A DNA stretch of 64,000 nt from Cyanophora paradoxa CCMP329 (Eukaryota; Plantae; Glaucophyta): the NCBI GenBank assembly GCA_004431415.1, contig QPMI01000632.1, positions 1-64,000 on the forward strand. The letters are read 5' to 3'. The position numbers and the translations under genes were made by a program. Below the pieces are notes generated by a model. That model saw only the letters and a list, made by a program, of their open reading frames with translations. It was not told where the DNA came from and did not search any database. The first letter of the stretch is position 1; each line of letters opens with the position of its first letter. This document shows, in pieces, positions 1-26,476 of the stretch.

Positions 1-2525
1 GGCCAGGATCTGCGGCACGTCCATCGGTGCAGCCTTGTGCACCCAGTCGATCTCCATTTTCCGTCGCTCTTGCTCTTTCCTCGCCGAGGGCTTGCCCTGA
101 TCTGCGGTCGTCCACAGGTTCTCAGAAGGACGGATGGAGAGCTGGCGGAGCCGGGCGGCAACGCTCAGGTGCCTGGAGGGCATGGAGGCGCGCCTGTCTC
201 CGTTGTGCTCGGCTTTCAGATCCAGGTACGTCTCCACTGCCGGCGCCTCGGTGGGGAGGCCGGGGCCGTTGGGGCCGCCGCCTGACTCGCGCCAGTGTCG
301 TGCAGCATCAGAGGCGCGAACGGGCGTCACGCTGCACCGCCGAACGGACAGCAGCAGGTGCTCGCCCCCCTTCACCCCTGTGCCTTCGCCCTGGCCCCGC
401 AGCCGCCTCACACGGAACAGCAGCTGTACGATGTCGTCGGCCTCCAGTAGGGGCATCTTGGCGTCGAAGATTCCGTAGATCTTGTCGAAGTGCGCATCCG
501 AGAAGTCCACGCCCGCCCCCAAGGCCGACGTCGCAATGACTGCGTCGCAGGTCTTGTAGCCGCCCTCCTCGGCCAGATCGAGCTTCTTCACGTGGACCCT
601 GCCGTCGTCACTGTAATCGAACTGTTTATCTCTAGCCTGCCCTATGACAATTCCAATTGTGAAGGGCCCGGGGGCGCAGGCTGGATCTCGCTCCAAGATC
701 TCGGCGGCCTGCTTCCTAAGTGCGCTTGCCAATGCCTGCGCCCGGCCTGCTGTCTCGACGATGATCATGGCGCGCAGGCCGCCGGGGCGGCACCTTGACA
801 TCAGGTCACGCTCGACGGCGGTGGGGCTGTCTGACAGGCGCATCCGCCAGTCGCAGGTCCGCCGATGGTTGAATAGGAGGGCGAGCCGAGCCCCCGTTGC
901 TGCCGCCGACTTGCCAAGGAAAGCGAGGTCCGTGGGCCTCACGTAGCCGTCCAGCGCGACGATTTCCTGTGCGCCCTCGATTCCCCGCCAGAGACGGGCG
1001 CAACGCAGGTTGCGGGGGAGGCTCCGCGCCCCCAGCCCACCGGCCACGGGCTCCAAGGTCGAGCTCAAGGTGAAGTGTCGCGTGAGGGAGGAGAGCTCGT
1101 CGAGCACGACCAGGAGGCGCCCGCCGCCGCCCTCGCCCAGGTCCTCGAGCCCCTGCCAGTCGTCCTGCACCTTGTGAGCCGAATCGATCGTGCAGATGAC
1201 GACCTGTATCCTCGGATCGCGGAAGCCCCACGTCCCGTGAGCGCTCTCGGGGTCCTTGGGGCGCCAGACGTCCGAGTAGAGCACGGCGACCGAGGGGAGG
1301 GAGGCTTCGTCGAGGCGGCGCTTGAGGTCGCGAGAGAAGGCCCGACGGCAGGTGAGCACGAGGATTTTGCGCTTCAACTCGAGCGCCGGGCGGACGTAGG
1401 CTTCAATCAGCGCCTTCGTCTTGCCGGTGTTGAGCCCGCTGCAGATCACGTCGATCCGGCGGGGCGCCCCGGATCGGGCTTCAGTTCGCCAAAGGTCGAT
1501 TCCAGCAGCTCGCGGCTCAGGTACCGCTCGTCCACCTCCCTCGCCGCAAATGGAGCATGGCCGACGGATCGCAGGGCGAGGAGGAGGGACGGGAGGGCGG
1601 TGTCAAGGGAGACGCCGCGCCGAAGGTCCGTTGCGTAGGATTTCGTCTTGGCGCCGCCGCCTCCATCTGAGAGCCTCGCCTGCAGGCTGAAGTTCCAGAT
1701 CTGGACCTCCAGGCGGGAGTTCGGACGCGCCTCCACCTCGAGCTCGAAGGCCAGCGACCCGTCGGGCTCCGTCCTCGCCTGCAGCACCCTCGACGACTCC
1801 AGGCGCAGGTGCACCCCGAGCGCGTCCCCCGCCCTCTCCAGCTCGCCCCGAACCGACATGCTGCCCCGCAGGAGAGCGAGGGCCCGCTTGAGGATCTCGC
1901 CCGCGGCTTGGTCTCCAGCGACCTGTACCCCAGCGGCCTGCTCTGTACCCCTCTCACCGGCGCCTTGTTCCTCTGTCCCTCCATCGGTCCCTCTCCGCTG
2001 GCCCGCCGCCTCCGTCCCTTCTTCGGGCAAGTCGTCAAAGAAGTCCGCGGGCAGATCTTCCAAGAAGTTTGCAGGCAAGCCTACAGCGGGAGCCCCTTTA
2101 GCTCGGCGCAGGCTTACCCCCCCGTCAGGCTCGATGCAGAGGCGGAGCTCCGACCCAGGCGCGAGGCCGCCGAAGAGCCAAGAGAAGATGGTGGAGGCCT
2201 CGGCGCCCTGCAGAACGAAGTGCGCGCTCTGTCCATCCTCCAGCTCGCGGGAGAAGCTGACGCCCCCCGTCCTGCCCACGACAGCCTTCGCGGCATCGCA
2301 AGCCGACTCGCCGGGCGCGACCTGGCAAGGATTCACGCCCGGGGCGAGGCTCAAAGCGTAGACCACCCCCATCGCAGGCGACCAGGCCTTGGAGACCGAG
2401 ACGAACGGGAAGCATGCAAAGAGATCCTCTTCCTCGGCATCTAGATCTGCCTCCTCGGCGAAGGGCAGCTCGTCTAGCAAGTTGACGTGCATAATGTTCG
2501 TTTTGATTTCGCAGTTGATATGCAT
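1..2525 (-). CDS. Intronless SF2 helicase of the herpes UL9 / NCLDV replication-origin-binding protein type; one frameshift near 1460-1500; runs off the left edge
   Basis: ORF 1446..2594 ends ...REVDERYLSRELLE. A second minus frame, open from about 1470 to position 1, reads IDVICSGLNTGKT (Walker A, 1440-1417), KILVLTCRR, VVICTIDS, LLVVLDELSSLTRHF (Walker B), EIVALDGY, IATSALGAGVDFSDAHFDKIYG and VQLLFRVRRL. This is the motif order of UL9-like origin-binding helicases. Confidence 0.75.
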
Positions 2526-2712
2526 GAGTGCTTCAGAAAAAGTCGAGTGCAGCACAACCGACGGCCTGGCGGGCAGGAGGGGTTGGGGGATCACAGCCCT
2601 GCTAGGGGGTACTCAATATCATGGCATCTAGAGGACCGGGGTACAGGCAAGAGCTCGAGCTCTGCAGACTTGCGGGATGTGACCACCTCTTGGAAACTTC
2701 TATTAGAACTTT

Positions 2713-3321
2713 TCATGAGGTGGACACAACATGTACAGCTGCAGCTGGGCGACTTACAGAGTGCACATCCTTTGCTTCAGCTATCTTGCGCGCCTTTGCT
2801 ATCGCATCATGAGCGGCAAGGCCGTACTCTATCACTGCCGGTTGGCCTGGGCGAAAAGAGACGCGCCAGTAGCGGCTTTCCTTTGATTCTGCAGACAGCT
2901 CGTCAATCATTGCTTGGACTTGGCTCTGTTCGTAGGCTCGCTTCCTCCTCTTTGTCAGACACTTGCCTTTGTTGCTTGGAAGCTTGTCGCCTGCCACAGG
3001 AACCGCCCCAAGCCGACCTCCGCAGTCCATGAGCCGTAGATTCTCCCTGCGCAGGTCCAGCTTGCACCCGCTGATGCTGTCGACGCGCCAGTCGTCGTTG
3101 GGCAGGCCGAGGGGGTACCCGAATAGAAAATGATGAGCGTAGGCCACCTTCCCGTCTGGCAATACTGTGTACGGCCAGCTCTGTCCATCCGCAGAGGCTA
3201 CTTGCCATTGGTACATCCAGAGCGCTGGTGCCCGTCGCTTGTCTACTGTAAAGCTCGTGTAGCCCCCGTTTGGGAGAAGGGCGAAGATAAAAGCTGCATT
3301 CCAATCAAATGATCCAGACAT
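2713..3321 (-). CDS. Intronless HNH-AP2-like protein with degenerate HNH active site
   Basis: FTVDKRRAPALWMYQW...AHHFLFGYPLG...WRVDSISGCKLDLRRENLR matches the phage/viral HNH_3 pattern (VDHINGxxLDNRxxNLR) with H>S and N>L. The C-terminal YWRVSF...EYGLAAHDAIAKARKIAE resembles an AP2-type DNA-binding domain. First ATG is at 3321. Confidence 0.6.
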   Translation of the reverse strand: MSGSFDWNAAFIFALLPNGGYTSFTVDKRRAPALWMYQWQVASADGQSWPYTVLPDGKVAYAHHFLFGYPLGLPNDDWRVDSISGCKLDLRRENLRLMDCGGRLGAVPVAGDKLPSNKGKCLTKRRKRAYEQSQVQAMIDELSAESKESRYWRVSFRPGQPAVIEYGLAAHDAIAKARKIAEAKDVHSVSRPAAAVHVVSTS

Positions 3322-5440
3322 ATTGCAAATGATGCCGCTGGCTACTACTGGGCTAGCGCTGCCGCACTTGACGTGCTGCTTCAAGCTAAGCTCACTTTGC
3401 CCTAGGCTCAGAAAATGTTGGGCCGAATCAGAAGCTGGCCCGAGAGGGGTACAGCACTTAGTTAGCACCCCAGTGGAGTTAGCCCCCGCGGGGCCCCAGA
3501 GGGGTAAGGCAGTCTGTCAGCAGCTGTGCTTGTTGGTGTCCGCGCGAGGGGTACGCTGACTGTTACTGCCCCGCGTGGGTTAGTGCTAGCCCCCCCTGTT
3601 AGTGTCGGGTGTACGAGATCGCAATATAACACTCAAATCTCCGTGATGCGTGACTCACGCAAACCTCCGAGGGTTAACAATGGATTCATAAAGCTCGAGA
3701 GCTGGCGGTTCGCGGATTCCAGGTCGACGCCCACATATATAAAGTCTTTCTTGGCCCGGCCGCGGCTGATCAGATCCGCCGCGCAGTTCCTGAGCCCGCT
3801 ATCATCCGCCCCACCAACACCGAAGCGCGTGCCCACGCCCGCGCTCGAGCTCGAGCTGAATGCGCCGCGCCCGCGGCCGGCACTTGAAAGTGGTTCGGCC
3901 AAAGCGCTAGCCATTGTTTCAAGTCTGCCACAGCTCTCCGCATCTTGCGCCGGCCGTGGTCGCACTCCGTCTGACACGCCAGGCTGCAGCGCCAGCTGCC
4001 TCGCCCGCGGCCGCGGCCGTTGCAATTGACCATGCATATGACTCTTCGCGCGTGCTGCAGGGATTCTCGCGATCGGCGCACTCGGCACTCCCTCGACTCA
4101 GGACTTGCCTTCTGGATCCGCTGCTGCAAACAGCATCGGTCGCCCCGAGCTCCGCACTCTGCGAGTCCCACGTGCGCCGCGGCGCGCGCCAGCTCTAGAT
4201 CTAGATCTGCCGGCCGCCTGGGCGCCGCGGCGCCCCGTGCTGGATGCTCATCCCCACGAAACTTCTGTGCAGCTATTTTGGTGTCTGCGACTGACGTTTC
4301 GAGCGTGGATCTCGTCGACAAAGCCTCATGCCGGCATCACGTCTTTGGTCCGTGCCCGGCCGCCCTTCCGAGGCGTTCTAGATGTGGGTCTCGGCCCGGC
4401 GCCGGCGAGCCTCTGCTGACGAAGACGCCCCCTCCTAGTCCCCAAGGCTTCCGCATCCCGGGCGGCGGCGCATACGCACGCGATGCACGCTCGGCCCGTC
4501 CGCACGGTGCGCCCCGTTGACGTCGAACTCATCCCCGCCCGCCTTCGGTTTAACTTCCAGAGGGCCGCAGCGCGCCGCAAGGCAGCACTAAGAGCTATCG
4601 CCGGACGTCGATGTGCACGTGGCGGGGCCGGCGCCCGGCCATGTACATTAGATCTAGATCTAGATCAGTAGACCTCAGTCTTTCTTTCCGTTAACGTTCC
4701 TCGTCGCATATTAATATAATGTAATCGATATCGAAGGAAACTACGTTAGATATCGATCTAGAACTTGCTAGCGCTGTTGTTCTTTCTTTCATGATTCAAC
4801 TTCGATTTCGATGTGATTTGAACTAAGCTGGATCATCGGATATCGACAGATGTACATCGATACTATGATAGAGTGAAAAAGTACATGATAGATACTAGTA
4901 CTACGATGCGTTTCGGTCGACCCTGTAAGACGAATCTTATAATTAGACGATGGAAAGCTTCGCGTGGGGCAACTTGCCCGGAAATTCAAACCGTGAACAG
5001 CTGCAGAAAGCTGCATATGCATGCGCAGGGCCTCGGCGCGGCCTCATGCATATATATAGCTGAAAAGGAAGCCATGAACCAAATCTGTACGTGGCTGCAA
5101 CTGCGTCTACTGCTCAAACACGAAGCGTGTGCAGGTTGTCAGTTGTACTACAGTATGAGCGGTGCTGAGCGTTGGCAATTAAATGAGACTTGACGACTGA
5201 AAAAAAATGGAAGCGCCGAGAGGCCGAGAAGGAACCACTACAACAGCTTGAATCTAACAATAATAAAAAGCTATCAAGACCTCTACAAAAGGCGGCACCG
5301 CAGGCGGCGGTGCCACTGTACATGTACTACCCGAAATAAAATACACTTGATAAAGCTGATATCGCATCGATATATCGCGAAGAAATTGCCGAGTTGGCAG
5401 CGCAAGTGCGCCCATGAATGCGGGCGGCCTCGACCTCGCC

Positions 5441-7414
5441 CTACGCGCCGGCCCCCGAGGCGCCGGCGCGGAAGTCGCGGAAGAGGACGACGAGGATGGT
5501 GCAGTTGTCCGTGCTCTTCCGCCCGTACGCCTGCGCGCGCAGTCAGCGGGGGCCGACGCGGCGGGGCCTCCGCAGAATCTGATTCGAACACGGGGGCGCC
5601 CACCTTGTCGCAGACGGCCTTGCCGGCGGCGGCGGGGTCGCCCGTCCTGACGAGGGCCTGCCGCGCGATGCTGACGGCCTCCTTCGACTCCAGCCGGTTC
5701 CATATGCCGTCCGTCGCCACGATCAGGAACTGATTCGAATTCGATCGTCAGATGGACTTTGGGGAACGGGCGCGGGCGCGGCGCCGGCAGCGCGCGGGGC
5801 GCACCTCGTCCTCCCCCGTCAGCTTCGCCTCCAGGATCTAATTCGAATTTGATCGTCAGATCGAGTTCGGGGATTGGGCGCGGCCGCGGGTCGAACCTCG
5901 GGCTCGCAGGTCACAACGTCCGGGCCCAGCTTCTCGGCGGGGAAGCACTGCGGGGCGACTGTGAGGCGCGATCGCGAGCACAACCCCCCGATCCGATACA
6001 ATCGCGTACCCCAGCTCGGAAGTCCTTGAGGCAGATCTCCCCCATCGCCCGGCTCATGGACAGGTACCCCAGGATCTGCGGGGGAGGGTAAAGAGTCAGG
6101 AACCGGCGGGGGTACCGCGAATCGCGAAGTGCGCGCCATGCCCTTGTCGTCGATCCAGGCGCCGTTGCGCTGCACGCGCTCGAGCTCGTCCCGCCGCGCC
6201 GACGGCCGGTGGTCGCAGCTCATGTCCACCGCCTTCCCGCCCCTGCACAGCACCGCGCGGCTGTCTCCGACGTTGCCCTGCGCGGGCGCGGCGAGCCCGG
6301 GTCAGACGCGCGGCCCGCCCGCGCGCTTTTCGTGAATTCCGGATGCACCACCGTGCAGACGCCGTCGAGGATGACGGCGAAGCAGGCCGTGGAGCCGCTC
6401 ACGTCGTTCGTCTCCTTGGCGCGCTGCAGGATGGCCCGGTCCACCTCCGCCACGCCCTGCCGGATCGCCGACTTTGTGTCCGCGCCCGTCTGCGCGATCT
6501 GCGCGACGACGGCGTCAGCGCTTGCAGCGGCCGTGCGCTCTCCTCGCTTGGCTCGCGGCGGCGCGCCTTCTCTATCGATCTCCGCAGCATTTCCGAGCAC
6601 GTTTGCGCCGTACTGTCGCCTGCGTGGCCATCGAACACTCCTGCAGGGGCGCGTCGATCAGGCCGCTGCGGCCGGCGGCCGGCCGCGGCGGGGCGAAGCG
6701 CACCGAAGAAGCTCCCGCTCTTTCCGCACGCCTCGAACGCCCCGATGGCGTAGCGATCCTCCTGGGACTGCCGACCGCGATACTCAGATAAGATAAGAAG
6801 GCGTGGCCTCGCGCGGGCCGCCGGGGTCTCACGTCGCGAGGGCCCTGGAAGCTCTGCAGGCCGTACGGGTGGAGCGCGCCGGTGCCGACCGAGACCGACG
6901 GCAGCGAGCGAATGATTGACTCGAGCTTGTTGTCGTCTCCGAACATGCTCGCGATTTTACTGAAGAAGCCGCGCTCCTCCTTGGGCTTGGCATCCACGTT
7001 CAAGTCCGCAACGATCACGGAAGGCTTAGAAGTCGGAGTGGATGAGCCCCACTGCCCCTTGCTGTCAAAGAGCTTTCCACCTCTCTGCGAGCCTCCGGGT
7101 GTCCCCGGGCCGGTGCCCCAGCCCGCCGACATCGCTCCGTGCATCGAGTTCTCGCGGCTGTACGAGCCGAACGAGCCGTGGCGAGAGCTGTCGCGGCTTC
7201 CGCTGCTCTTGCCGCCGTGCATCGAGACATCCGACTCAGAGCGATCTGCAGATCAGGAGGGGCGATCAGCCCTCCCCCGCGCGCACGCGCGCCCGTTCCG
7301 CGCGCGCGCGCGCGGCCGCATGCCGCGCGGCGGGACACGCGGCATGGCACCTTTGTCCTTTCCGTCTTTCCCCAGCGACTTGAAGAAGCTGAGAAGCGCC
7401 CCGTCCTTCGGCAT
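5441..7414 (-). CDS. Protein phosphatase 2C (PPM family), multi-exon
   Basis: Spliced motifs QGPRD|SQEDR, VFDGHAG, SGSTAC, GNVGDSRAVLCRGG, DHRP, LSMSRAMG, FLIVATDGIW and STDNCTILVV. ATG at 7414, TAG at 5441. Confidence 0.9.
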
Positions 7415-14289: not shown

Positions 14290-15652
14290 CCCTGCTGATT
14301 TGCTGCGCGGGGCTCTCCAACGTGCTAAAACGACGTAGAACGTTAGTTACAGCTGAGTGCCACGCTCCACACGCACGCACATGCAAGTCTCTCAACCTCC
14401 TTGTCGATTTGAGTTGTGATCCCCTTCAAGAGTCAGCTGCGGGCGCGCGACGTCAGCGTAAATCGGCGACTTCAGCCGATCCAGCACCGAGGGATCAAAC
14501 GTGCGCGGGGGGAAGGGGGCCTATGATCTCTAAGGAGTGAACAAAGCTCGGCAAATCGTGTCACGGGGGCACCTGCGAAGCCGGTCGAGCGCTTCAAACG
14601 GGTGCTGATTCTCCACGGGAGCGATGCCCGGCCGCTCGCCGGCGCGCCGCAGCCCTCGAATCCAACGCGGTCGGGCAGTCAAGAGTGAGGAGGGGGAACA
14701 AACGGCCGTCGCACATCTACCCCCCCTGCGCGGCGAAGCATCAAATTCGAACTACCGTGAAGCTTTCAATCTGCGCAAGCAGCGCGGCAGTTGACGCCGA
14801 CAGAGGCACCGGCGTGCGCCGCGACATACTGCACGATCGTCGCACGTAACGCGGTTCACGGAGGCATGCGCATGCGCAAGCTCGCTGTACCATCGATATC
14901 GCGGAGTCGACGTCCGCGGCCGGATATCACAGCGAGAAAGAGCTCGGGGGGCATGCGCAAGCTCGCGCGATCGATAGCGCTGCATGCGCACGTGTACATC
15001 GACATCCGCGGCCGGATCCACGCGTACGCCGATGGCCTAGCGCGCAGCCACCGTGGCATGCGCACCCTCAAGGCTTCTCTCGCGAGCCGGACCACTGCCA
15101 GGCTGGGCCTGGCCACGTGCACAAGATTATAATTAAATATTAATATTGATATCGATATTCTTAAGTGAGGTGCGTGTACGTAATTATAAACGACCCAAGC
15201 CATACCACATGTACATTGTATGCTAGCGCTCTCATTGCTACTCTGACGTCGACAGCAATCTCTGAGGTTCCATCGGTATCTCGTAAATCTCTACCTGAGC
15301 TATCGATCCAGCTATATCGATATCCGGGTGGCGGATGTCTAAATCTTCGATCTGTACCTTGAAAGGAATGTCGTCTATCTGAAATGACACACACGTTTCA
15401 CTCATGACCAAAATTACCAGATCTGCCTGCAACTGAGAAGTGCCTCGGAGTCCGAGATAAACTTGCGCTCGAAAGTAGCGTAGCTGTCTGTGCGAAACGT
15501 GAAATGTTGGAGCAATTATAAAATGAAAAAGAAGAGAATTCAAAAGTCTTAGACAGTTCCCTACAACACCATCCGTTAACAAAGAACATTATTCTTAAAC
15601 TTTAGTAAAGCCGAGTATTAAGTGTCAATCAAATGCTCGCGTGGATAAACCA

Positions 15653-18600
15653 TCACCGGGCGGGAGCCTCGGGCTCGGGGGGCGGGGGCGGGGCCCGGCG
15701 GCTGTGGCGGGCGACGGCCTCCATGAGGACCTGCCGCCGGATCTGCCCGCCCCGCCGCCCCCCGCACCGTCAGCCGGCCCCGCCCCGCCCCGCCCGCCCC
15801 GCGCCCGGGCACGGGCGCACGGGCTTGCAGAGGAAGGCGTCGCCGCCGAGGCGCAGCGCCTCCTCCTGGTCCTCCGGCATCGCGTTCGCCGAGAGGTACC
15901 TGCCGGCCCCTCGGCCCCGGCCGGCCGGGCGGGCGGGGCGGGGCCGTACACGATGGGGACGCGCCCGGCGACCGCCCCGGAGGCCTCCAGCGCGCGGATC
16001 TGCGAGCAGGCGCGCCGCCCGTCGCACACCGGCTGCGGCCCCCGCGTTACCCCGCGGAACGGAGCGGAGACCGAGCGAAACGCGGCGGACCATCTCCACG
16101 TCTGCGCGCGGGGGGCGGCGCTCAGGGACGGCGAGCGGCGGGGCGGGCCCAAGGGGCGCGGCGGGCGCACCGAGGAGGATGAGGTCGACGCGCGCCGGGT
16201 CGGCCCTGTACGCCTCTGCGCCGCCCGCCTCGGGCTCGGCGGGGGCGGGCCGGGGTCGGGGCCGGGGGCGGCGGACCGATGCACTGGAGGCCGTCCTCGC
16301 GGTGGCGACCTCGCAGCCGCCGAGCTCGAGCATCTTCTTGGCGAGCACCAGGTTCGTCCGCACGTCGTCCACCAGCAGCACCCGCACCCGCCCGCAGGAG
16401 CCCCGCCGCCGCCCGTGCCGGCGGAAGCAGCCGCGGCGGCCTCCGAGGGCTCGGCGCCGCCGCGGTGCTGGGCGGCAGAGCGGCCGGCGCTGAGGCCGGC
16501 GGCCCCGCGCCCGCGCCCGCGGGCGAGCCCGGCGGGCCGCCCTCCTCCGCGTCGTTCAGGCTGCGGGAGCATCAGCAGCGGAGCGGAGGGGCGAGCGGGG
16601 GCGCGGGGCGGACATGCGGAGGAGGGCGCGGGCGAGCTGCGAGGGGAGGACGGGGCTCCGATGCACTCGGCGGCGACGCGCGCGGCGGCCGCCTCCTCCG
16701 ACTGCGCGCGGCGTCGGGGGCGCGGGGCGGGCGGGGCGGGGGCGGGGGCGGGCCTTGGCGGAGAGGAGCGCGAGGGCGCGCCGCCGCGGGAGCGGCCCCG
16801 CGGCGAGCGCCGCCACGTCGCCGATCGCCACCGCCGCGCCGCCGACGTCGTTGGGCCGGCCCGCCGCGCCGGCCCCGCGCCGCGCCGTCCCGCCCACTGC
16901 CGCGCGCGTCGCATCGCGAGGGCGGACGCGAGGGGCGGCGGGGCGGGACCTGGGAGACGTAGAACTCGAGCAAGTCGGCGACGCCGGCGCTCGCCGCGAG
17001 GACGGCGCACACGGCGCCCCGCAGCCGCGGCCACTCCGGCTGCTCGCCCTGCGCGCGGCGGCGCGTGAGGCCGCCGCCGCAGAGGCGCGCGCGCCGCCGG
17101 GCACCTCCTGCAGCTGCAGGACGGCGGTGGCCCAGAAGCGGGAGCCGCGCCCGGGCTCCGACTCGACGCCGACCGCACCGCCCAGGCTCTCCGCCAGCCG
17201 CTTCGCGATCGCCTGCCGCCGCGTGAGGCGCGCCGGGCGGGGCCCGCGGGAGAGGCGCACGAGGCCGAGGCCGGTACCCCCGTACATCCGCGTGACGTCA
17301 TCGGCCGCAAGCTGCGCCGGCGGCGCTCGGGCGGGGGCGGCGGGGCGGGAGGGCCGGCGCGGGCCCCGGACCTGGCCGTAGGGGCGGAAGAGGAGGTGCT
17401 GGTGCTCTGCGGGGCGGGGCGGACTCAGCGGCGGCCGCGAGGGCCGCTCGGCGAGCATCGAGCGGGGCACCCTTCGCGATGCCGATGCTGCAGGCGGCGG
17501 GGTTAGGGCGCCGGGCAAAGGGCGGCCTTCGAAGGGCGCGCACCCGGTGTCGGTGACGGTGAAGCGGAGGGTGGCGGAGGCGCCGGGCCCGCGGGCCGCG
17601 AGGTCGACCCGCAGCTCCACCCGCCCGCCCCGCTCGCTGAACTTGATCGCGTTCGACGCGTAGCTGGCGAGCGGGCGGGGTCAGCCGGCCGGCGGAGGGC
17701 GGGGCGGGCTCGGGTAGAGGGCACTTCATGACGATGCGGCGGAGGCGGACGCTCTCGCCGACGACGAGGCGCGGCACGGCCGGCGGCACGAGGAGCAGCA
17801 GCTCGACGCCCTTGTTCCGCGCCCCGCCCGCCAGCAGCGCCGCCGTCTCTGCCGGCGGCGTCGGCGGGGCGGGGGACGGGCGGGGGCGGGGCGGGGGCGG
17901 GCCCTCCATGTGCTCGACGAGGTCGAAGGGGGCCGGCCGCGGCTCCGCCCCGCCGCCCTCCTCCAGCCGCGAGTACTCCAGGATCTGACCCCCGCCCCGC
18001 CCCGCGGCGTCAGGCAAGGAAGCGTGCCGGCCGCCGCCTCGTCCGGGAGGGAAGCGACGCACGTCGTTCATGAGGGAGACGAGCAGCTCGGTCGCGGCCC
18101 CGATGTGCTGCACGTACTCGCGCTGCTCAGGGGAGAGGGGCGTGTCGCGGATGAGCTCGTGCGAGGCCGCGATCCCGTTCAGCGGCGTCCGCAGGTCTGC
18201 GCGCCCCCGCTACCCCGTGAGCGGGGGCCGCCGCGATCGCGCGGGGCCCGCGCGAGGGAGCCGGACCGTGCTGCGGGGCGCAGACCCGATCAGGCCGGAG
18301 AGCGCATCGATGGAACGAGAGCGGGGCGCGGGCGGGCGCGGCGGACCGTGACCATGGCGAACCAGCGCCTGCGGACAGCCTGCAGCTGCTTCTCGGCGCG
18401 CACCCTCGCAGACACGTCGCGCTGCGGCGCCCCTCGCGATCGGACCGGGCGCCCCGCGCGGGCTGGCGGGCGGGCGGGCTGCGGCGGGGCGCACGATGAA
18501 TGCGGAGTAGCTCTTTCCCTCCGAACTCGCCTCTGCGAGGTCCTCTTCTTGCTCCCCCGCCGCCTCCTCCAGCGACGTGAAGCAGACCTCCACTTCGATC

Positions 18601-21600
18601 TTGCCGCTGGGGCACAGGGCGACACCGTTCCACACCTGAAGCCGGTTAAAGGCGGCGGCGAATATGACGGAGCGCCGCGCGCGCGCACCCGACCCAGGAA
18701 GAAACCGCGATCGTCCGTCGATATCGAGCCGCGCCTGCCCTTTGGGCTGCAGATGGCCTCCAGAGAGCTCGCAGGGCGCTTCGGAGGGGCCCTCAGCTCC
18801 TCCAGCGCAGTAACTTGCGGCCCCTCGATCTCCAGCAGCTCCGACAGCGCCTGCGCCCCGCTCGAGCCGAGCTCCGCGCGCTGGCCGAAGGAGAAGGGCG
18901 GGGGCGGCACCTTGCCGACGAGGGCGGAGCGGGGGGCGCGCCAGAGGCGCTCGCTGGCGGGGTTGGCGGCGACGACGCGCGCCGCCCCGTCAAGCGTCAC
19001 GATCGCGTCGTGCGCGCTCGCTGCGCCCCGCGGCCGCTCGGACGCGGCGCTGGGCGGGCGGGCGGGACGCGGGCGGGACGCGGCGCCCCGCACCGAGGAC
19101 GGCGGCGATCTCCGCGAAGCTCTTCCGGAGCCGCTCGTAGAGCCGCGCGTTGACGATCTGAGGCGAGCGACCCGCGCGGGAGCGTCGGAAAGGGGCCGCG
19201 CGCTCGAGAGCCGGCGCGCAGGGCGGGGCCGGCGCACGGAGACGGCCATCTGGGAGGAGAGGATGCGGAGCGTGTCGACGGCGGCGGCCGGGAAGGCGCC
19301 CCGCAGCAGCCGGTTCTCCAGGTACACCGCCCCTGCCCCGCCGTCAGCTGCAGCCCGGCGCGAGACGGGGCGGGGCGGGCGGGCGGGGCGGGGCGCGCCG
19401 ATGGCGCGGGCCTTGTGGGAGATCGGCAGCGCGAGGAGGCTGCGGACGCCCGCGCGCTGCACGTACCCGTCCCCCGCCACCGCCGCCGCCAGCGGCCCCT
19501 CGCCCTCCTGCGGGCCCTCAGCGCGGCGGCGGGCGGGGCGGGGCGGGTGGGGCGGACCGTCCTGGAGCAGTCCTGGACGATGGCGACCTGCTCGGTGGCG
19601 AGGGCCCACTCGACGGCGCGGACGCAGAGCTGCTCGCCGCACTCCGCGAGCGGCGCGCCGCGCAGGACCTCCGTGTGGATCGACGTCGTTCCGAACGCGG
19701 CCGAGGGACGGCGGCTCGTCGGCGTGTGGACCACCTCCCCGCTCGCCTCGACCTGCGCGCTTCAGCGTCGCCCGCGGCGCGCGCGGCGCGTCGGGCGCGG
19801 CTCGCACGTAGTATTGGGGCGGGCCCTGGGGCGGCGTCGGCGCGGCGCCCCCGTCCTCGTCCACGTCGTGCTCCAGGACCTGCGCGAGGACCGGAGTGAG
19901 CGGGGCGGGGGCGGGGATCTGGACGTTCCGCCTGCGAGGCCCCGCGCACCAGGAAGCCGCGCTCGCCGCCGGAGATCTCGAGGATGACGACCATGAGGCG
20001 CTCGAGCAGGCGCCCGAGCTCGATCTCCCGCGAGATGAACTGGCTCGCCGACGCAAGCGTCTCCCTGCCGGGCGGGACGGCATCGGCACCTCGCCACGCG
20101 CAGCTGCGCGCCGCGGGTTCGCAGCTCGCACCAGTTCAGTGCATCGCTCTCGGATGAATCTCGGATGCCGTCCGAAATCGATACCGAGCTCTTGGGGGCG
20201 GCGCGCGGCGGCGGCGAGTTTGGCCGCGAGCAGGGGCGCTGGAGAAGGCCCCTTGTTAAAATTGAGAGACTGGGAGACCGAGGGAAGTTTCGTACCGCAG
20301 GGGGCGATCGCGAGGCCTCGAATGAGGCGCTAGCAGCCGCGGCGATGGAGGAGTCCGCCCTGTCCGGCGCCACTAGAACCGCGTCGAAGCCGCCCGGCCC
20401 GACGGACCAGAAGCTGCCGCGGCGGGAGCCCGGCTTCCGCTTTTGGCTCTCGTTCGCGGTCACAGCGGGCTCCAGTACATCGCACTCCAGATCCGTGCTC
20501 TCCACGACGATCTCGGGTAGCGGCGGCGCCGCGGCGGCGACCCCCGCCTCGGAGACGAGGGCGCGGAGGGCGGCGGCGCGGGGGGCGGCGCCCCAGGCCT
20601 CGAGGGCGGCGGCGGCGACCCGGAGCGGCCCCGACGCCATGCGGCGCAGGCCGAGGTCCACCGCGAGCGACGCAAGCCGCTCGCCGGCGACGGCGCTGCG
20701 GGCGCGGGACGCGGGCGGGGTCAGGGGCGGCGGGGGCGGGGCGGGGCGGGGCGGGGGCGCGCGAGAAGAGGTGGAGGCGCTGCTCCTCGCCGGCGTCGCA
20801 TGCCGCCTCGTACAGCGCCATCGCCTCCGCCGCCGCCCCGCCCGCCCGCCCGCGCCGCCTCCGCCCGCATCACAAGGTGCCTGCCCGCCCCGCTCGCCCT
20901 CGCGGCCGGATGGGGCGGGCGGGCGGGGCGGCGGGGACCGGGGCGGTAGGCGAGGGGGAGGCGTCGGCGAAGGGCGCCATGCCGTCGCAGCAGCGGCGGA
21001 GGCGCTCCGCGAGGCCGGCGCGCTCAGCCGCTGAGAGCGGCGCCGCATCGAAGGACGGCTCCGCCCGCCCCGGCGAGAGCCGCTGCCGGAGGCGGCAGCG
21101 TGAGCGCCGCGGCGCGGGCCGAGCGCGCGGCGCGGGGCGGACCACTCCGATGGCGAGGGCGGTGGCGAAGAGGTAGTCCTGGTACGTCGTGTACCCAACC
21201 CTGAGGAGGACGACGTTCGGGTTTGCCGCGTCGAGCTCCTCGACAAATCGCCACGCCTGCGCGACGCGCGTACGCGTTGCCGGGGGGAACACGTCCGCTG
21301 CTGGGGCAACGCCCTCGGATGCGCACCGTGCCGAAATCGCCGAGGAGGACGCACAGCATGATGGAGAAGTTCGTGTACAGGGCTTTGGCCCTGAACGCTC
21401 GGTCACGAGCGACTTCACAAGGCGACGACGCCCGGCTGGTTCCGCACCAGCAGGGCAGGCCGGCGAAAATCTCGCGGAGGCGGCCCGCGTCGAGCGCCAG
21501 CCGGCCGCACGGATTCCCCTCCGCCGGCGCCAAGACAAGCTCCAGGGGCGGCGCCCTCGGGCCGCCCGCCGAGGCCCCGTCCTCGCCCTGCGACGGAATC

Positions 21601-24600
21601 GAGCTCGCCCCGGCCGGCGCGTCTCTCGCGGCGAGCCGGGCCGCGCACCTGCAGGAGCGCCGAGACGAAGGCGAGCAGGTTCGAGACGACGGCGTAGATC
21701 TCGTGCTTCCCCTCCACGAAGCGGTTCACGGACACGGCTGTGGGATCCAAGCTAAGCCGCGGGCCGCGGCGGACAAATGTGGAAATTGGAACGGGGCGCG
21801 CATCGCTCGTGGACGGAGTAGAGGGGCTCGCAGGACCAGAAGGCGGCGCCGCCCATGCAGGTGCCGGCGATGCAGGCCGAGACGACGTCCCCGGTGGAGA
21901 GGGCGAGCCTGTACGCGCTGTCCCCGATCTGCGCGCCGCCGACCTCAACCGAAGCCCGGCGAGAGCTATGTATGCGGATGAGGCTGCGCCCACCTCCAGC
22001 GATGTGGAGAACGGCTCGGCCAGGACCGAGGCGAGGGAGCACCAGAGGAGGGTCTGCGGGTGCGCCGGTCGCGATCAGCCGCGGGGCGCCGAGGGCCCGG
22101 GCCTATAGGAGTTTATCCCCTTACCTTGGCATCCACACTCGCATAATCATCTTCTGCCGAACGGGAGGCGAGCGCCAGGGCGACCTGCAGGGGCTTCAGC
22201 GCGCGAATGCGGCGGGGCACGAGGGTGCGGCTACCTTTGCGCAGGTCGCCGCGTGCCGAAGAGTCGCGTCGGTGGCAACGCACGCCTGCGCCAGGATCCC
22301 CGCCAGCAGCGCCGTCTCCGGGGCCCGCCCGTGCCGAAGGCTCAGCAGCAGGCACCTGGCGCGGACAGATCACAACAGCGGCCATATATATGAAAGCTCT
22401 CCGGCCGCGCGCGGCCGCACGCACCGCGCGGGGATGAGGCAGAAGAGAACGGGAAGCTGGCTCAAACGGACGGAGAGGGCCGTGTCGGCGCCGACCTGCA
22501 TCAGATCCAGAATGTCTGCACAAAAGCTCAGCGCCAATCACCACCCAAGTCGATCACGTCGGCCGCACCGCTGTCGCGGCACTCCGGCAGGGCGGAGAAG
22601 GCCGCGACCACCTTCTCTCCCCTCTTGTCCAGCTCCGCCGCGGTGCCAGAGAGCGCGCTCGCTATCTCGCTCATCTCCGCCTCGACGTCGTCGAACGTCG
22701 CCTCTGCCCGGCCGTCAGCGATCGCGAGCCTCCCCGCGCGCAGCGAGGGCCGCGGGGCCACCGAAGGAGAAGGAGATGCCCCACAGGGAGCGCAGGCAGT
22801 CCAGCCCGGCCTCCGCGCTCTCCCGGAAGCGTCCCGCCGTGCTCAGGAACGCGATGCGCAGGCGGTACGCTGCCGCCGGCGTCACGGGCGGAGGGCTGCG
22901 GACGGGGGGCGCGCGGCGGGGCGGCACCGCTCAGGCGCTCGGCGCGGGTCTCGGCAAGCTGCCACATCGACGCGATCTCCGCCTCGGCGGCCGCGTAGGC
23001 GCCCGAGAGGTACTTGCACTCGGCCAGCGCGAGCTGCGGGCGGGGGGACGCTCAGCGGGCTTCGGCGGGCTTCGGCGGGGCGGGGCGAGGGCGCGCCGAG
23101 AGGGAGAAGCGGAGGGGGCGCAGCTCGCCGTCGCGGCCGGAGAGGGCGAGGGCGCGCAGGCCGCAGGCGGCGTACTCGGCGCCGCGGGCGTACCCCGCGC
23201 AGCGCCGCGCCCGGCGGGCGGCGAGCAGGTCCAGCTCCGCGATCCCGGCGAGGGCGGCCGCGTCGGCCCCCGCCGGCGGCTCCTCCAGGCACGCGTTCAG
23301 CAGGTTCGCCACCTGCGCCCCGCTCGGCGCCGGCGCCGGCGCCGGCGGCCGGGGCGGGGCGGCGGCCCGGGGCGGACCTCGTAGAGGTTGGCAGCCTCGG
23401 CGGGCTCCCGCATGGCCCCGCGGAGGAGCGTCCCCGCGCGGAAGCAGAGGTCGCTCCGCTCGCGCGCCCCCACCATGTCGTGCGCCGCCTGCGCCCCCCC
23501 GCGTCAGCGGCGGCCCGGCGGGCGTCCCGAGGGGCGGCGGGGGCGCCTGCTGGATCTTGTCGTGCTGGAAGGAAAAGACGGCGTCGCCGGCGCCCTGGAC
23601 GAGGAGGCCCGCCGCGAGCGCCGGCTGCACCGCCCGCTGGCTCTCCTGCGCCCCCGCCCTCAGACGCGGAGAGAGCCGCTGCGGAGGGGCGGGCGGGCCT
23701 CCTCGGAGGCGCCGGTGATGGTCGCGAGCATCGCTGCGTCGAAGGCCGCCCCGCAGCAGCTCGCCACCTGCCGGCCCCGCTCAGCGGCGCGGCGCCGGCG
23801 GGGGCGGGGGCGGGGGGCGGGCCTTGAGGAGGGCCTGGGTGGCGGGGGGCAGGGCGAGGATGGAGAGGGCCGCCATCTCCGCCACGTCGTCCCCTCGTGC
23901 ACCGCGTCCACCTGCCCCGCCCCGCCCTCGGCCCCCGCCGCCGCCGCCGGCCGGGGCGGCGCGGCGGGGCGCACCTCGGCCTGGCTCCAGGTCCAGCGCC
24001 CCGAGGGGTAGTCGAAGTGCAGCGCGCGGCGCTCGACCAGCGCGCGCAGCAGCTGGATCTGCGGCCCCGCCGTCGGTCGCGGGCGCGGCGCAGCGGGGCG
24101 AAGGGGCGAGGCGGGCGGACGGTGTGGAAGGGGTTGCCGTGGGCCTTGCGCACGAGCGACGCGGCCAGCGCCTCCGACCGCTCGTCCTCCGGGGTTTTCA
24201 GCTGCCGCCCGCGCGTAAGAAGCGGCGCGGCGGGCGGGGCGGGGCGGGGCGGGGGGCGCGCCGTGGCGGCGAGGATGGCCTGGCAGTCGCCGCGGCGCAG
24301 GGGCGCCAGCGCCAGCTCGTGCACCGGCACGACCTCGCGGGGGGTGAGGCGGGCGGCGCCGCGCGCTCTGCGGGGGCGGCACCTTGGCGGCCCGGCGCAC
24401 GAACTGGGCGACGGCGTGCTCGTCGGAGACCTCGCAGCTCCTGCGCCGGCGCTCGCCGCCCGGTTGCGGGCTCCGGGGCGGGGCGGGGCGGGGCGGACCG
24501 GTAGGTGGCGCAGAGGGCGACGGGGAGGTCCGACGCGAGCACAAAGTCCGCGAGGGAGAGCGTCTCGGGGTCCGCCCACTGCGGCCGCCTCAGCGGCCGG

Positions 24601-26476
24601 CGACACGGGGCAGGGTGGGACGGGCGGGCGGGCGGGCCTGGAGATCGTCGAGGAGGACGAGGGTGGGCAGGCCGGGCGCCGAGACGGCCCGCAGCAGGTC
24701 CACCACCAGCGACCGCAGCCGCGCCTGCAGCTCGGCGGGGCGCGCCTCGGGCAGCGGGGGCGGGGCGGGCCCGAGCAGGAGCTTGGCGGCGGGGGCGACG
24801 TCGACGAGGAGGCGGGCGCGGGGCCCGAGGGCGCCGGCGACGGCCTCGCGGCGGCGCGCGACCTCCGCGGGGGCCCCGCCAGCAGCCCGCAGAAGAGGTC
24901 CTCCAGCGCCCGGAACCAGACCGCCAGCGGCGCCCGGTTGTACTGGTCCGCCTTCCCGTACAGGTGCCGCGCCGCCGCCCCTCCGCCGCCGCCCGCCGGC
25001 ACAGCTCCCGCGCCGCCATCGTCTTCCCCGCGCCCCTGCCGCCGCGTCGGCCGCCCGGCGGGCGAGGCGCGAGGGGCGCTGCAGACGCACGCGGGCCCGC
25101 TGACGACGATGAGCGCCGGCCGGGCGCTCTCCTGCGCGGCCGTGTCAAGAGGCAGCGTGAGCGGGGGGCGCGGGGCCGGCACCTTGGCGGCGCGGCAGGC
25201 GTCGAGGGCGCGGGCGATGTCCTGCGGCGCAGCGTGAGCGCCGCGCGGCTTTGGGGCGGTTTGCAACAGAGGAGTGGACCTGGGTGGGGCCGCCGCAGGG
25301 CGCGTCGGGCATGCTGAGCCGCGCGCTCACGTCCCGCTCCCCCAGGCCGAACGTCTCCTGCCCCCGGCCCGCGCGGTGCAGGTCCCGGCACCTGCGCGCC
25401 GGGCCCGGGGCGTCAGGGGTACGCCGGGGCCGGGCGGGGGCCGGGGTCGCCTCCTGAGGTCGTGGAGGAGGCCCCAGGCCGACTGGTAGCGGTCCGCCGG
25501 CGTCTTCGCCAGCAGCCGCTGCGTCCCGCTCGGGGGGTACCGCGCGGCCGGGGAGGAGCAGGGGTACCTCGACGATCGCCTCGAAGGCCGGGGGTACGAC
25601 GGGGTTCAGCTGCGTCACCCGAGGCGGCCTGCGGGGCGGTGGGCGGGGCGGGGTAGAAGGGGTGCGGGGAGGCCCCGGGGCACCGCTTCGCGAGGTGCCC
25701 GTGGAGGTACTCGAGCGCAGTGGACCCCTCGAACGGCCGGCGGCCCGTCGCGCACTTGAAGAGCACCAGCTGGGGGGGAGGGGTCAGGGGTACGGGAAGG
25801 GAAGGGTCGCGCGGGGCCGGCCCCGCACCCCGAGGAGGTACAGGTCGGACCGCTCGTCGGCCCCTGCGGCGTCGGCGTCAAGGCCCCAGCGGCGGGGCGG
25901 GAGGGGCGGGCGGACCCTCAGAGACGCCCATCCTGCCGGAGAGCTCGGGAGCCGTGTACGCGTACCCCTCCATCGCCTCCGCCGGCTCCGCGCCCGCGGC
26001 CTCCCCCCGCGGCTCCGCATTGCCGAAGCGCACGAGGACTGCTGCGCATGCGTCGCGCGTCAAGGCCCTGCGGTGAGAACGGGGTGCACGGACGTCCCCA
26101 GCGCACCGGTCCTCGCGTCCTCGCCGCCACCAGCTCCAGAGCGATCAACGCGGAAGAAGATGTTGCGCGGCTGTCAGGGGGATCGGGGCTCAGCCACTTC
26201 AGCGAGTGAAGGAAGAGATCAAATCTTCGCACCCGGAGCGCGGACAGTAGCAAGCCGCGCGAGGAATCCGAGCTCGAAGGTTCATGCGCGGCATAGAGCG
26301 CGTCGGCGAGCGCGACGCTGAGGTCCAGCAGGCGTGTGGCGTCGAAAGGTCCAGCTTGCGCGATAGTTCTGCTAGGAGAATGGTACGGGTCGGGGGGTCG
26401 AATGGGGTGGTCGAGGTTGGTTCACAGCGCGATTTGACCTGTTAAGTTCTTCCCATCCTTCGGTCGGGTCCATCAT
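15653..26476 (-). CDS. Multi-sensor hybrid histidine kinase, copy A (pseudokinase C-lobe, AAA/STAND ATPase, helical region, GAF, PAS, HisKA, HATPase_c, REC); dozens of introns
   Basis: Spliced motifs [27 protein letters not shown]|GAGKT, LLDDLQ|[38 protein letters not shown]|H|[20 protein letters not shown]|IGI, GGTGLGL, GRGSRF, LVDD, ILL|DVEM|P and FLCKP. ATG at 26476, TGA at 15653. Confidence 0.9.

What the first reader, a model, noticed from the sequence alone, without database searches (positions are those of the whole stretch)
1..2525. Hidden intronless UL9/origin-binding-type helicase, missing from the ORF track
Seen: a minus-strand frame open from about 1470 to the window edge carries a full SF2 motif set (SGLNTGKT, LDELSS, ALDG, TSALGAGVDF..HFD, QLLFRVR). 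It joins ORF 1446..2594 through one frameshift and has no intron over 2.5 kb, whereas neighbouring host genes are interrupted roughly every 100-200 nt. Knowledge: this helicase family belongs to herpesviruses, NCLDVs and some plasmids, not to the core eukaryotic gene set. Inference: a gene of viral or mobile-element origin, already close to host GC content.
Basis: partly seen in the sequence, partly recalled or inferred. Interest (0 to 1): 0.7.

Follow-up and report, generated by a model that had tools for sequence, protein, structure and literature searches.

The report
Viral helicase under spliced antisense RNA
An alga carries many copies of an intact, intron-free gene for a DNA helicase of the kind herpes- and giant viruses use, likely one end of an integrated virus-derived element, and the spliced RNA seen over it runs in the opposite direction, which would likely help keep the gene quiet.

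Summary
The helicase is real. All five motifs sit in one minus-strand frame, and Pfam, PDB and Foldseek put it with UL9/origin-binding helicases. The frameshift is an assembly error: 4 of 4 DNA runs carry one extra base at 1470. The gene is therefore intact (about 1,074 aa, cut by the window edge), and 22 of 31 copy differences are synonymous. EukProt labels the matching model Cyanophora paradoxa; relatives lie on 26 named contigs in four subfamilies. No primase domain is detectable. Upstream sits an HNH-like gene resembling giant-virus proteins, and shared sequence ends near 3735-3741. Unexpected: RNA contigs from four studies are spliced across the gene at 12 plus-strand introns, i.e. antisense, with no ORF beyond chance. 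Best reading: the end of a long-resident, multi-copy virus-derived element whose replication helicase is overlaid by a spliced antisense RNA. Whether the element is a whole virus or capsid-less cannot be seen here.

The parts
1..1470 (-). SF2 helicase core (two RecA-like domains) and start of the C-terminal helical region of a UL9/R8/pF1055L-type helicase; about 243 further residues lie beyond the window edge (seen in sibling P0013)
1470..1472 (.). One-base assembly error that creates the apparent frameshift
   Evidence: one extra base in 4 of 4 DNA runs and in RNA run X18; P0004 and P0013 continuous
1471..2525 (-). N-terminal region (about 340 aa) of the same protein, ATG at 2492 or 2525; no detectable AEP primase; its last ~140 residues are conserved with a second subfamily (39%)
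1..2547 (+). Spliced antisense RNA with 12 introns of 54-93 nt: 27-117, 226-295, 490-550, 720-777, 928-1008, 1141-1195, 1352-1444, 1521-1574, 1626-1685, 1809-1871, 2075-2128 (GC-AG), 2220-2284.
   Evidence: none of these joints in the DNA runs
2713..3321 (-). 202-aa HNH_3-like gene, possibly with a C-terminal AP2-like part; same orientation as the helicase and upstream of it; nuclease motif looks degenerate (recalled consensus)
   Evidence: synonymous excess weak, 7 of 12 vs 4.0
3569..3690 (.). Sub-terminal non-coding segment shared with the high-copy subfamily (depth about 40-60x flank, similar to that subfamily's helicase piece); candidate origin or terminal signal
   Evidence: tables 2, 3, 7
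3735..3741 (.). Likely end of the element: single-copy contigs begin at 3705 in 3 of 4 DNA runs (a branch about 30 bases on) and at 3734 in the fourth; another copy's RNA contig diverges behind 3741, at a short TA run

Best explanation
This is an intact, intronless UL9-type helicase gene present in many copies in the genome of Cyanophora paradoxa, likely the replication gene at one end of an integrated element derived from a Nucleocytoviricota-type virus, and the spliced RNA seen over it is antisense and likely dampens it. Shown: continuous frame, intact motifs, purifying selection, many copies, an upstream HNH-like gene, an end of shared sequence near 3735-3741, and 12 plus-strand introns. 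Inferred from the family: the protein binds an origin in the element, probably near its end, and unwinds it with ATP. Having lost its primase, it would rely on host primase and polymerase to copy the element. Inferred: a promoter downstream of the helicase drives an antisense RNA polymerase II transcript, which the host spliceosome cuts at its usual short GT-AG spacing because nothing constrains that strand. The RNA would then reduce helicase output by transcriptional interference or by double-stranded-RNA and methylation silencing.
For: Family: PF02399 E 2.5e-5 above cut-off; CyRepA1 E 1e-15; all 4 PDB sequence hits are UL9; AF2 model pLDDT 71.7 matches UL9 and giant-virus origin-binding proteins first. 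Intact; Walker A/B and motif VI match distant relatives. Selection: 22 of 31 listed copy differences synonymous, neutral mean 7.7, 0 of 2000 simulations as high. Multi-copy: 26 named contigs, four subfamilies at 41-73% identity, identical fragments under 4 accessions each (P0021, P0027). Viral companion: best Atlas hits of the upstream gene are HNH_3 and unnamed clusters, the first and third 100% viral and mostly Nucleocytoviricota, scores 0.93-0.94. Antisense RNA: 6 joints shared by two studies, 1 by three, 2 by all four, all resolving to plus-strand GT-AG or GC-AG, absent from DNA runs. Non-coding: longest ORFs 318 and 260 codons, reached by 1048 and 200 of 3000 frame-randomised controls. 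Sense strand is short of donor motifs: GT[ACG]CG 3 vs 11.0, 0 of 500 shuffles as low. Context: giant-virus insertions and methylated, silent viral genes are reported in this species (PMC12344493), and mriyavirus-related regions in a glaucophyte assembly (10.1101/2025.04.19.649669).
Against: No capsid, packaging ATPase, integrase or second terminus is visible, because the window starts inside the gene and no genome is held. The tree does not place the lineage: stem 2.27 changes per site, in an open fork; the best outside hit is only E 3e-8. Viral SF2 helicases of this type keep an AEP domain; none is detectable here. Host-like GC and codon bias (GC3 0.83) argue for long residence, not a recent virus. 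No sense mRNA is shown; the unspliced RNA contigs are low-depth and unstranded. Donor depletion weakens with the host-defined motif GTNCG (8 vs 14.2; 14 of 1000; fourth lowest of 193 patterns), and the acceptor motif is enriched on both strands of host sequence too. A silencing role is untested. The best-spliced contig (X19) carries the letters of a sibling copy.
Confidence: 0.68

Rival explanations
1. The gene belongs to a complete endogenous mriyavirus (Yaraviridae-like, 35-45 kb) with capsid genes lying beyond the window edge. This is a narrower version of the best explanation.
For: Some Yaraviridae carry an R8/pF1055L/UL9-type SF2 helicase; mriyavirus-related regions are reported in a glaucophyte assembly; the gene model ends at the window edge, as if the assembly broke in a long repeat (inference).
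Against: Mriyavirus SF2 helicases keep an intact AEP and this one shows none. No mriyavirus core gene lies between the helicase and the element end. No relative found in IMG/VR.
Confidence: 0.3
2. A capsid-less transposon- or plasmid-like element that copies itself with the UL9-type helicase and an origin near its end, outside the known transposon superfamilies.
For: Four diverged subfamilies in one genome, host-like composition, loss of the primase, a sub-terminal segment at about the same depth as the high-copy helicase, and an end at a TA run.
Against: No transposase, recombinase, terminal repeat pair or target-site duplication can be seen with only one end in view; the terminal segment folds no better than shuffles (z 0.82).
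Confidence: 0.3
3. A virus-derived helicase domesticated as a host gene family, for example subtelomeric in the way yeast Y' or fungal telomere-linked helicases are (recalled).
For: Purifying selection; host-like GC; the gene points towards what looks like a contig end (inference).
Against: No sense-strand introns in a genome with about 9 introns per gene (PMC6704402); a linked virus-like HNH gene; the other glaucophyte or eukaryote orthologues expected of a domesticated gene were not among 69 profile hits as far as names were looked up (17 of the 64 distant hits).
Confidence: 0.12
4. The plus strand is a real protein-coding gene with 12 introns, fully overlapping the helicase.
For: Two long ORFs tile the spliced RNA (1-1196, open at the edge, with a 246-codon Met-started part; and 1086-2482). 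7 of 11 differences are synonymous in the first. Overlapping ORFs are reported as common in this species.
Against: ORF lengths lie within the null. Half of the first ORF has its third positions on the helicase's third positions, which explains its synonymous share. The second ORF has only 3 of 14 synonymous differences and no Met in its printed translation. A stop falls at the 1140/1196 junction.
Confidence: 0.06
5. The antisense RNA is read-through noise, spliced at chance sites and without function.
For: Another plus-strand spliced RNA with only short ORFs lies just outside the element (3785-5529; longest Met ORF 102 codons). Antisense donor counts equal the shuffled expectation (11 vs 11.2).
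Against: The same junctions recur in independent studies. Antisense YGCAG acceptors are twice the expectation (20 vs 9.8; 0 of 500), above the host control (O/E 2.08 vs 1.26). The X19 contig spans almost exactly the helicase gene, though contigs cannot show RNA ends.
Confidence: 0.4

Closest known systems
Mimivirus R8 / ASFV pF1055L / Yaraviridae SF2_hel primase-helicases (PF02399)
   Same: SF2 core with the same motif VI form (QxLFRVR in P0056, P0042, P0067), length about 1,000-1,100 aa with the helicase after a 350-450 aa N-terminal part; top Foldseek hits.
   Different: No detectable AEP or PriCT domain; 11-19% identity; chromosomal, multi-copy, host-like GC; overlaid by spliced antisense RNA.
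HSV-1 UL9 origin-binding protein
   Same: Best solved-structure match over the whole length (E 1.8e-17); Pfam hit above cut-off; also lacks a primase.
   Different: 14% identity, TM-score 0.37; extra 340-aa N-terminal region; origin binding untested; host is an alga.
CyRepA1 cyanobacterial plasmid replication proteins (NF042913)
   Same: E 1e-15 over the core; the only 3 plasmid hits are cyanobacterial Rep proteins.
   Different: 57.6 bits against a cut-off of 200; no DUF3854; does not group with the cut-off-passing rows in the tree.
Endogenous giant-virus and mriyavirus regions of glaucophytes
   Same: Same host group; intronless virus-type genes.
   Different: Neither text read names this helicase family, its copy number or antisense splicing; the preprint's figure and supplements could not be seen.
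Polinton-like viruses with helicase fused to an unknown domain (PMC10120064)
   Same: Integrated, multi-copy, helicase with an unrecognised fused domain, HNH genes.
   Different: No PLV hallmark gene or terminal repeat is visible; the Polinton-like element in this window (38902-50030) is AT-rich and shares no sequence with 1-5000.

Membership tests
UL9/origin-binding-type SF2 helicases (PF02399) | Pfam score above the gathering cut-off | tested here: met
   23.1 bits vs 20; 21.7 for P0013; only the Walker A region matches
UL9/origin-binding-type SF2 helicases (PF02399) | Intact SF2 motifs I, II, III, V, VI | tested here: met
   D263 and E264 invariant, G155, K156, Q488, R492, R494 nearly invariant over 45 rows
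UL9/origin-binding-type SF2 helicases (PF02399) | Fold closer to UL9 than to cellular SF2 helicases | tested here: met
   the model was built on an alignment of family members, so this is not fully independent
UL9/origin-binding-type SF2 helicases (PF02399) | Sequence-specific origin binding and ATP-dependent unwinding | not testable with these tools
   needs protein assays
R8/pF1055L/SF2_hel primase-helicases | N-terminal AEP primase with catalytic motifs | tested here: not met
   no Pfam, NCBIfam or PHROG primase hit; no match to the N-termini of 27 relatives; one DxD only, in an acidic run; fold model unusable, pLDDT 34, so a decayed AEP is not excluded
CyRepA1 plasmid Rep (NF042913) | Score of at least 200 bits | tested here: not met
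   57.6 bits
Mriyaviricetes | MCP, packaging ATPase, VLTF2/3, RuvC, HUH endonuclease in a 35-45 kb genome | not testable with these tools
   the rest of the element lies outside the window; no genome held
Polinton-like viruses | Terminal inverted repeats, integrase or recombinase, capsid genes | tested here: inconclusive
   none in 1-3741; the other end is not in view
Integrated mobile element | Many copies with shared ends and differing flanks | tested here: met
   26 contigs; sequence turns single-copy after about 3735; one other copy diverges behind 3741; one end only
Integrated mobile element | Target-site duplication or empty site | not testable with these tools
   second end not in the window
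HNH_3 / HNH-AP2 endonucleases (upstream gene) | Pfam cut-off and catalytic His/Asn | tested here: inconclusive
   14.2 bits vs 24.8; PHROG 99 E 0.005; Atlas 0.93-0.94, AP2 in 16% of one cluster; catalytic positions look substituted by recalled consensus

The most novel reading that the evidence does not exclude
A capsid-less eukaryotic DNA element of a new kind that spreads with a herpes-type origin-binding helicase, without primase or polymerase, has diversified into four subfamilies inside one algal genome, and is regulated by a built-in, 12-intron antisense RNA written on the opposite strand of its intronless replication gene.
Probability: 0.2. Interest if true: 0.85.

Novelty: new variant of a known kind. 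Interest (0 to 1): 0.55.

Why it matters
UL9-type helicases are known from herpesviruses, giant viruses, mriyaviruses and cyanobacterial plasmids. Here a very divergent, primase-less lineage is intact, under selection and amplified in a glaucophyte nucleus. That points to an element family still spreading, hidden among this genome's unclassified repeats (11.5% of it). The strand asymmetry makes two open questions testable in a cultured alga: how an intronless viral gene survives in a nucleus that splices every 100-200 bases, and whether spliced antisense RNA is the trigger for silencing integrated viral DNA. It is also a warning for annotation: RNA-guided gene finders see introns here that belong to the other strand.

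Tried and rejected
Frameshift as biology (programmed or decay): rejected, extra base in 4 of 4 DNA runs. GGGGTAC as an element-specific origin repeat: rejected, 49 matches all over the window. Terminal hairpin: not supported (z 0.82). Structured RNA in 1-5600: 0 Rfam matches at E up to 1. N-terminal region: no outside relative in the 670-2000 aa search (2 hits, both of this family), no usable Atlas hit, no match to relatives' N-termini, fold model too poor to search; one search is circular because both alignments hold family members. Upstream HNH-like gene: no relative at E 1e-3 among 363 candidates, only weak phage hits (E 0.03 or worse), no useful PDB hit. Related loci: none in viral contigs (could not run) or metagenomes; the 18-base terminal pattern gave 2 loci that share only those 18 bases. 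Tree: the careful search did not finish; the quick tree leaves the lineage unplaced. No listed sequencing run is on record as RNA; the four used are guesses, taken as RNA because they show spliced joints that the DNA runs lack. Low or missing RNA cover over parts of the gene is not used as evidence. Earlier findings: nothing in three look-ups. Literature searches gave no listing that describes this helicase family in Cyanophora or spliced antisense RNA over an endogenous viral gene; subscription journals and bioRxiv supplements were not searchable.

Full report
Observation. The upstream ORF 1446..2594 is there. Pfam gives Herpes_ori_bp at E 2.5e-5, above cut-off; NCBIfam gives CyRepA1 at E 1e-15, far below cut-off; all 4 PDB sequence hits are HSV-1 UL9. 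No whole genome was held, so everything left of position 1 is known only from sibling proteins.

The frameshift is an assembly error. Contigs of 4 of 4 DNA runs carry one extra base behind 1470, at the full depth of that place, in both the exact and the 21-difference copy type. Sibling models P0004 and P0013 read through the junction. The frame is therefore continuous from ATG 2492 (or 2525): 831 codons in the window and about 1,074 in all. The EukProt model of this locus, P0003, bridges the error with a predicted intron and stops at the window edge; I infer that the contig ends there.

Family. A profile of six family members found 69 proteins at E up to 0.001 among 1.84 billion: 5 from this family and 64 distant ones, best E 3e-8. 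Of 36 distant hits scanned, 33 carry PF02399, 3 an AEP_C962R, 1 a RepB primase, 3 a PriCT_2 and 1 a DUF3854 domain; 35 hit CyRepA1 and 5 pass its cut-off. An AlphaFold2 model of P0013 on 45 rows (pLDDT 71.7) matches HSV-1 UL9 first in the PDB and giant-virus origin-binding proteins first in BFVD. A quick tree of 50 cores (4 of this family, 46 of the 64 distant hits; the other 18 lacked a recognisable core) makes the family one clade on a stem of 2.27 changes per site and leaves it unplaced. So it is a UL9-type helicase whose donor cannot be named. The N-terminal 340 residues stand where viral relatives have an AEP primase, but show none.

Host and copies. EukProt labels P0003 and its relatives Cyanophora paradoxa. 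Family models lie on 26 distinct named contigs and fall into four subfamilies at 41-73% identity. Contig depth over 1-3400 is roughly 4-6 times the single-copy flank, and pieces matching a diverged subfamily (near 1078 and 3605) are roughly 40-60 times; the tool warns that depth is no copy number, so this is a hint only. Of 31 listed differences between near-identical copies, 22 are synonymous in the helicase frame, against 7.7 expected (0 of 2000). The lists are cut to the best-supported rows, and I left out position 1078, which belongs to the diverged subfamily.

Anatomy of the element end. Upstream of the helicase, on the same strand, lies a 202-aa ORF (2713-3321) with weak HNH hits. Its nearest Atlas clusters score 0.93-0.94: HNH_3 and unnamed clusters, two of them entirely viral and mostly Nucleocytoviricota, one with AP2 in 16% of members. 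Its synonymous excess is weak (7 of 12 vs 4.0; 125 of 2000). Between copies it takes only a 6-base deletion, while frame-breaking indels lie upstream of it. A segment at 3569-3690 is shared with the high-copy subfamily, and the sequence turns single-copy after about 3735; another copy's RNA contig diverges behind 3741, at a short TA run.

The antisense RNA. Four runs guessed to be RNA, from four studies, show joints across the gene that the DNA runs lack. They resolve to 12 introns of 54-93 nt, 11 GT-AG and one GC-AG, all on the plus strand, with donors and acceptors like those of host introns. The strand is read from splice polarity, not from a stranded library. One 2,385-base contig of X19, with the letters of a sibling copy, runs from 642 bases beyond the window edge to 2547, just past the helicase start. 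Contigs cannot show RNA ends, so that fit is a hint. The spliced RNA has stops in all frames; its two long ORFs are within chance. Unspliced RNA contigs exist at low depth and cannot be assigned to a strand. The helicase's own strand is short of donor motifs (3 vs 11.0; 0 of 500), less so with a motif defined from host introns alone (8 vs 14.2; 14 of 1000; fourth lowest of 193 patterns). Antisense acceptors are twice the expectation, but host sequence also shows an excess on both strands, in a control that includes real intron edges.

Mechanism. Shown: an intact, selected, multi-copy, intronless helicase gene next to a virus-like HNH gene and an element end, overlaid by spliced antisense RNA. 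From family knowledge: such proteins bind an origin and unwind it. Inferred: it is the element's replication initiator, working with host primase and polymerase; the sense strand has been purged of splice donors so that its mRNA survives; the antisense RNA, free of that constraint, is spliced like any host transcript and likely dampens the gene. I give the virus-derived element about 0.8 and a silencing role for the RNA about 0.45. The rivals listed are not mutually exclusive: the first two split the question of what the whole element is, the last concerns the RNA only.

Literature, and what I saw of it. 10.1101/2024.02.29.582850 (passages; section 6 part 1 of 2): some Yaraviridae have an R8/pF1055L/UL9-type helicase with an intact AEP. 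PMC12344493 (passages; section 9): giant-virus insertions in C. paradoxa; viral genes methylated, methylated genes mostly silent. 10.1101/2025.04.19.649669 (passages; section 10): mriyavirus-related regions in a glaucophyte assembly; figure and supplements not seen and may bear on novelty. PMC6704402 (passages; section 15): 67.6% GC, 9.2 introns per gene, 11.5% unknown repeats, overlapping transcripts, siRNAs cited. PMC10120064 (passages): no mention of Cyanophora in the main text. PMC13483431: search listing only. Y' and telomere-linked helicases, and the HNH catalytic consensus, are recalled and come from no call.

Verdict. The helicase family and viral insertions in this alga are known, so this is a new variant of a known kind. 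Its interest lies in the divergent primase-less lineage, its expansion, and the 12-intron antisense RNA over an intronless viral gene.

Noticed in passing
window 38902-50030: Polinton/PLV-like element at 39% GC: 273-nt perfect terminal inverted repeats, flanked by a 6-base direct repeat (GGCGGG), A32-type packaging ATPase (E 2e-14), protein-primed PolB split into two ORFs at about 47400 (E 2e-10) with an endonuclease VII-like insert, DUF5710; 48291-49373 looks like an rve integrase and 40451-41311 like a capsid fragment by recall only.
   Followed up: partly
window about 15650-26260 and 30850-52590: Large inverted duplication (arms 90-99% alike) of a hybrid histidine kinase gene region; the Polinton-like element sits in one arm only, so the other arm should hold the empty site.
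   Followed up: no
window 3785-5529: A second plus-strand spliced RNA (introns 4172-4272, 4348-4438; longest Met ORF 102 codons) starts just outside the element end and overlaps the 3' part of a convergent PP2C-like gene; the PP2C label is recalled from the translation.
   Followed up: partly
whole window: The heptamer GGGGTAC occurs 49 times against 4.1 expected from shuffles, on both strands and in clusters.
   Followed up: no
window 1063-1350: The diverged, high-copy helicase subfamily also appears in all four RNA-type runs at higher contig depth than this copy's pieces; strand and splicing unknown.
   Followed up: no
proteins P0062 and P0107: Another EukProt eukaryote, not named by the tool, has two UL9-type helicase models; they do not group with the Cyanophora family in the quick tree.
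   Followed up: no
window 4190-4210, 4649-4666, 5740-5860: Short GATCTA/GATC-rich repeats with many different flanks in DNA contigs; possibly a small dispersed repeat.
   Followed up: no
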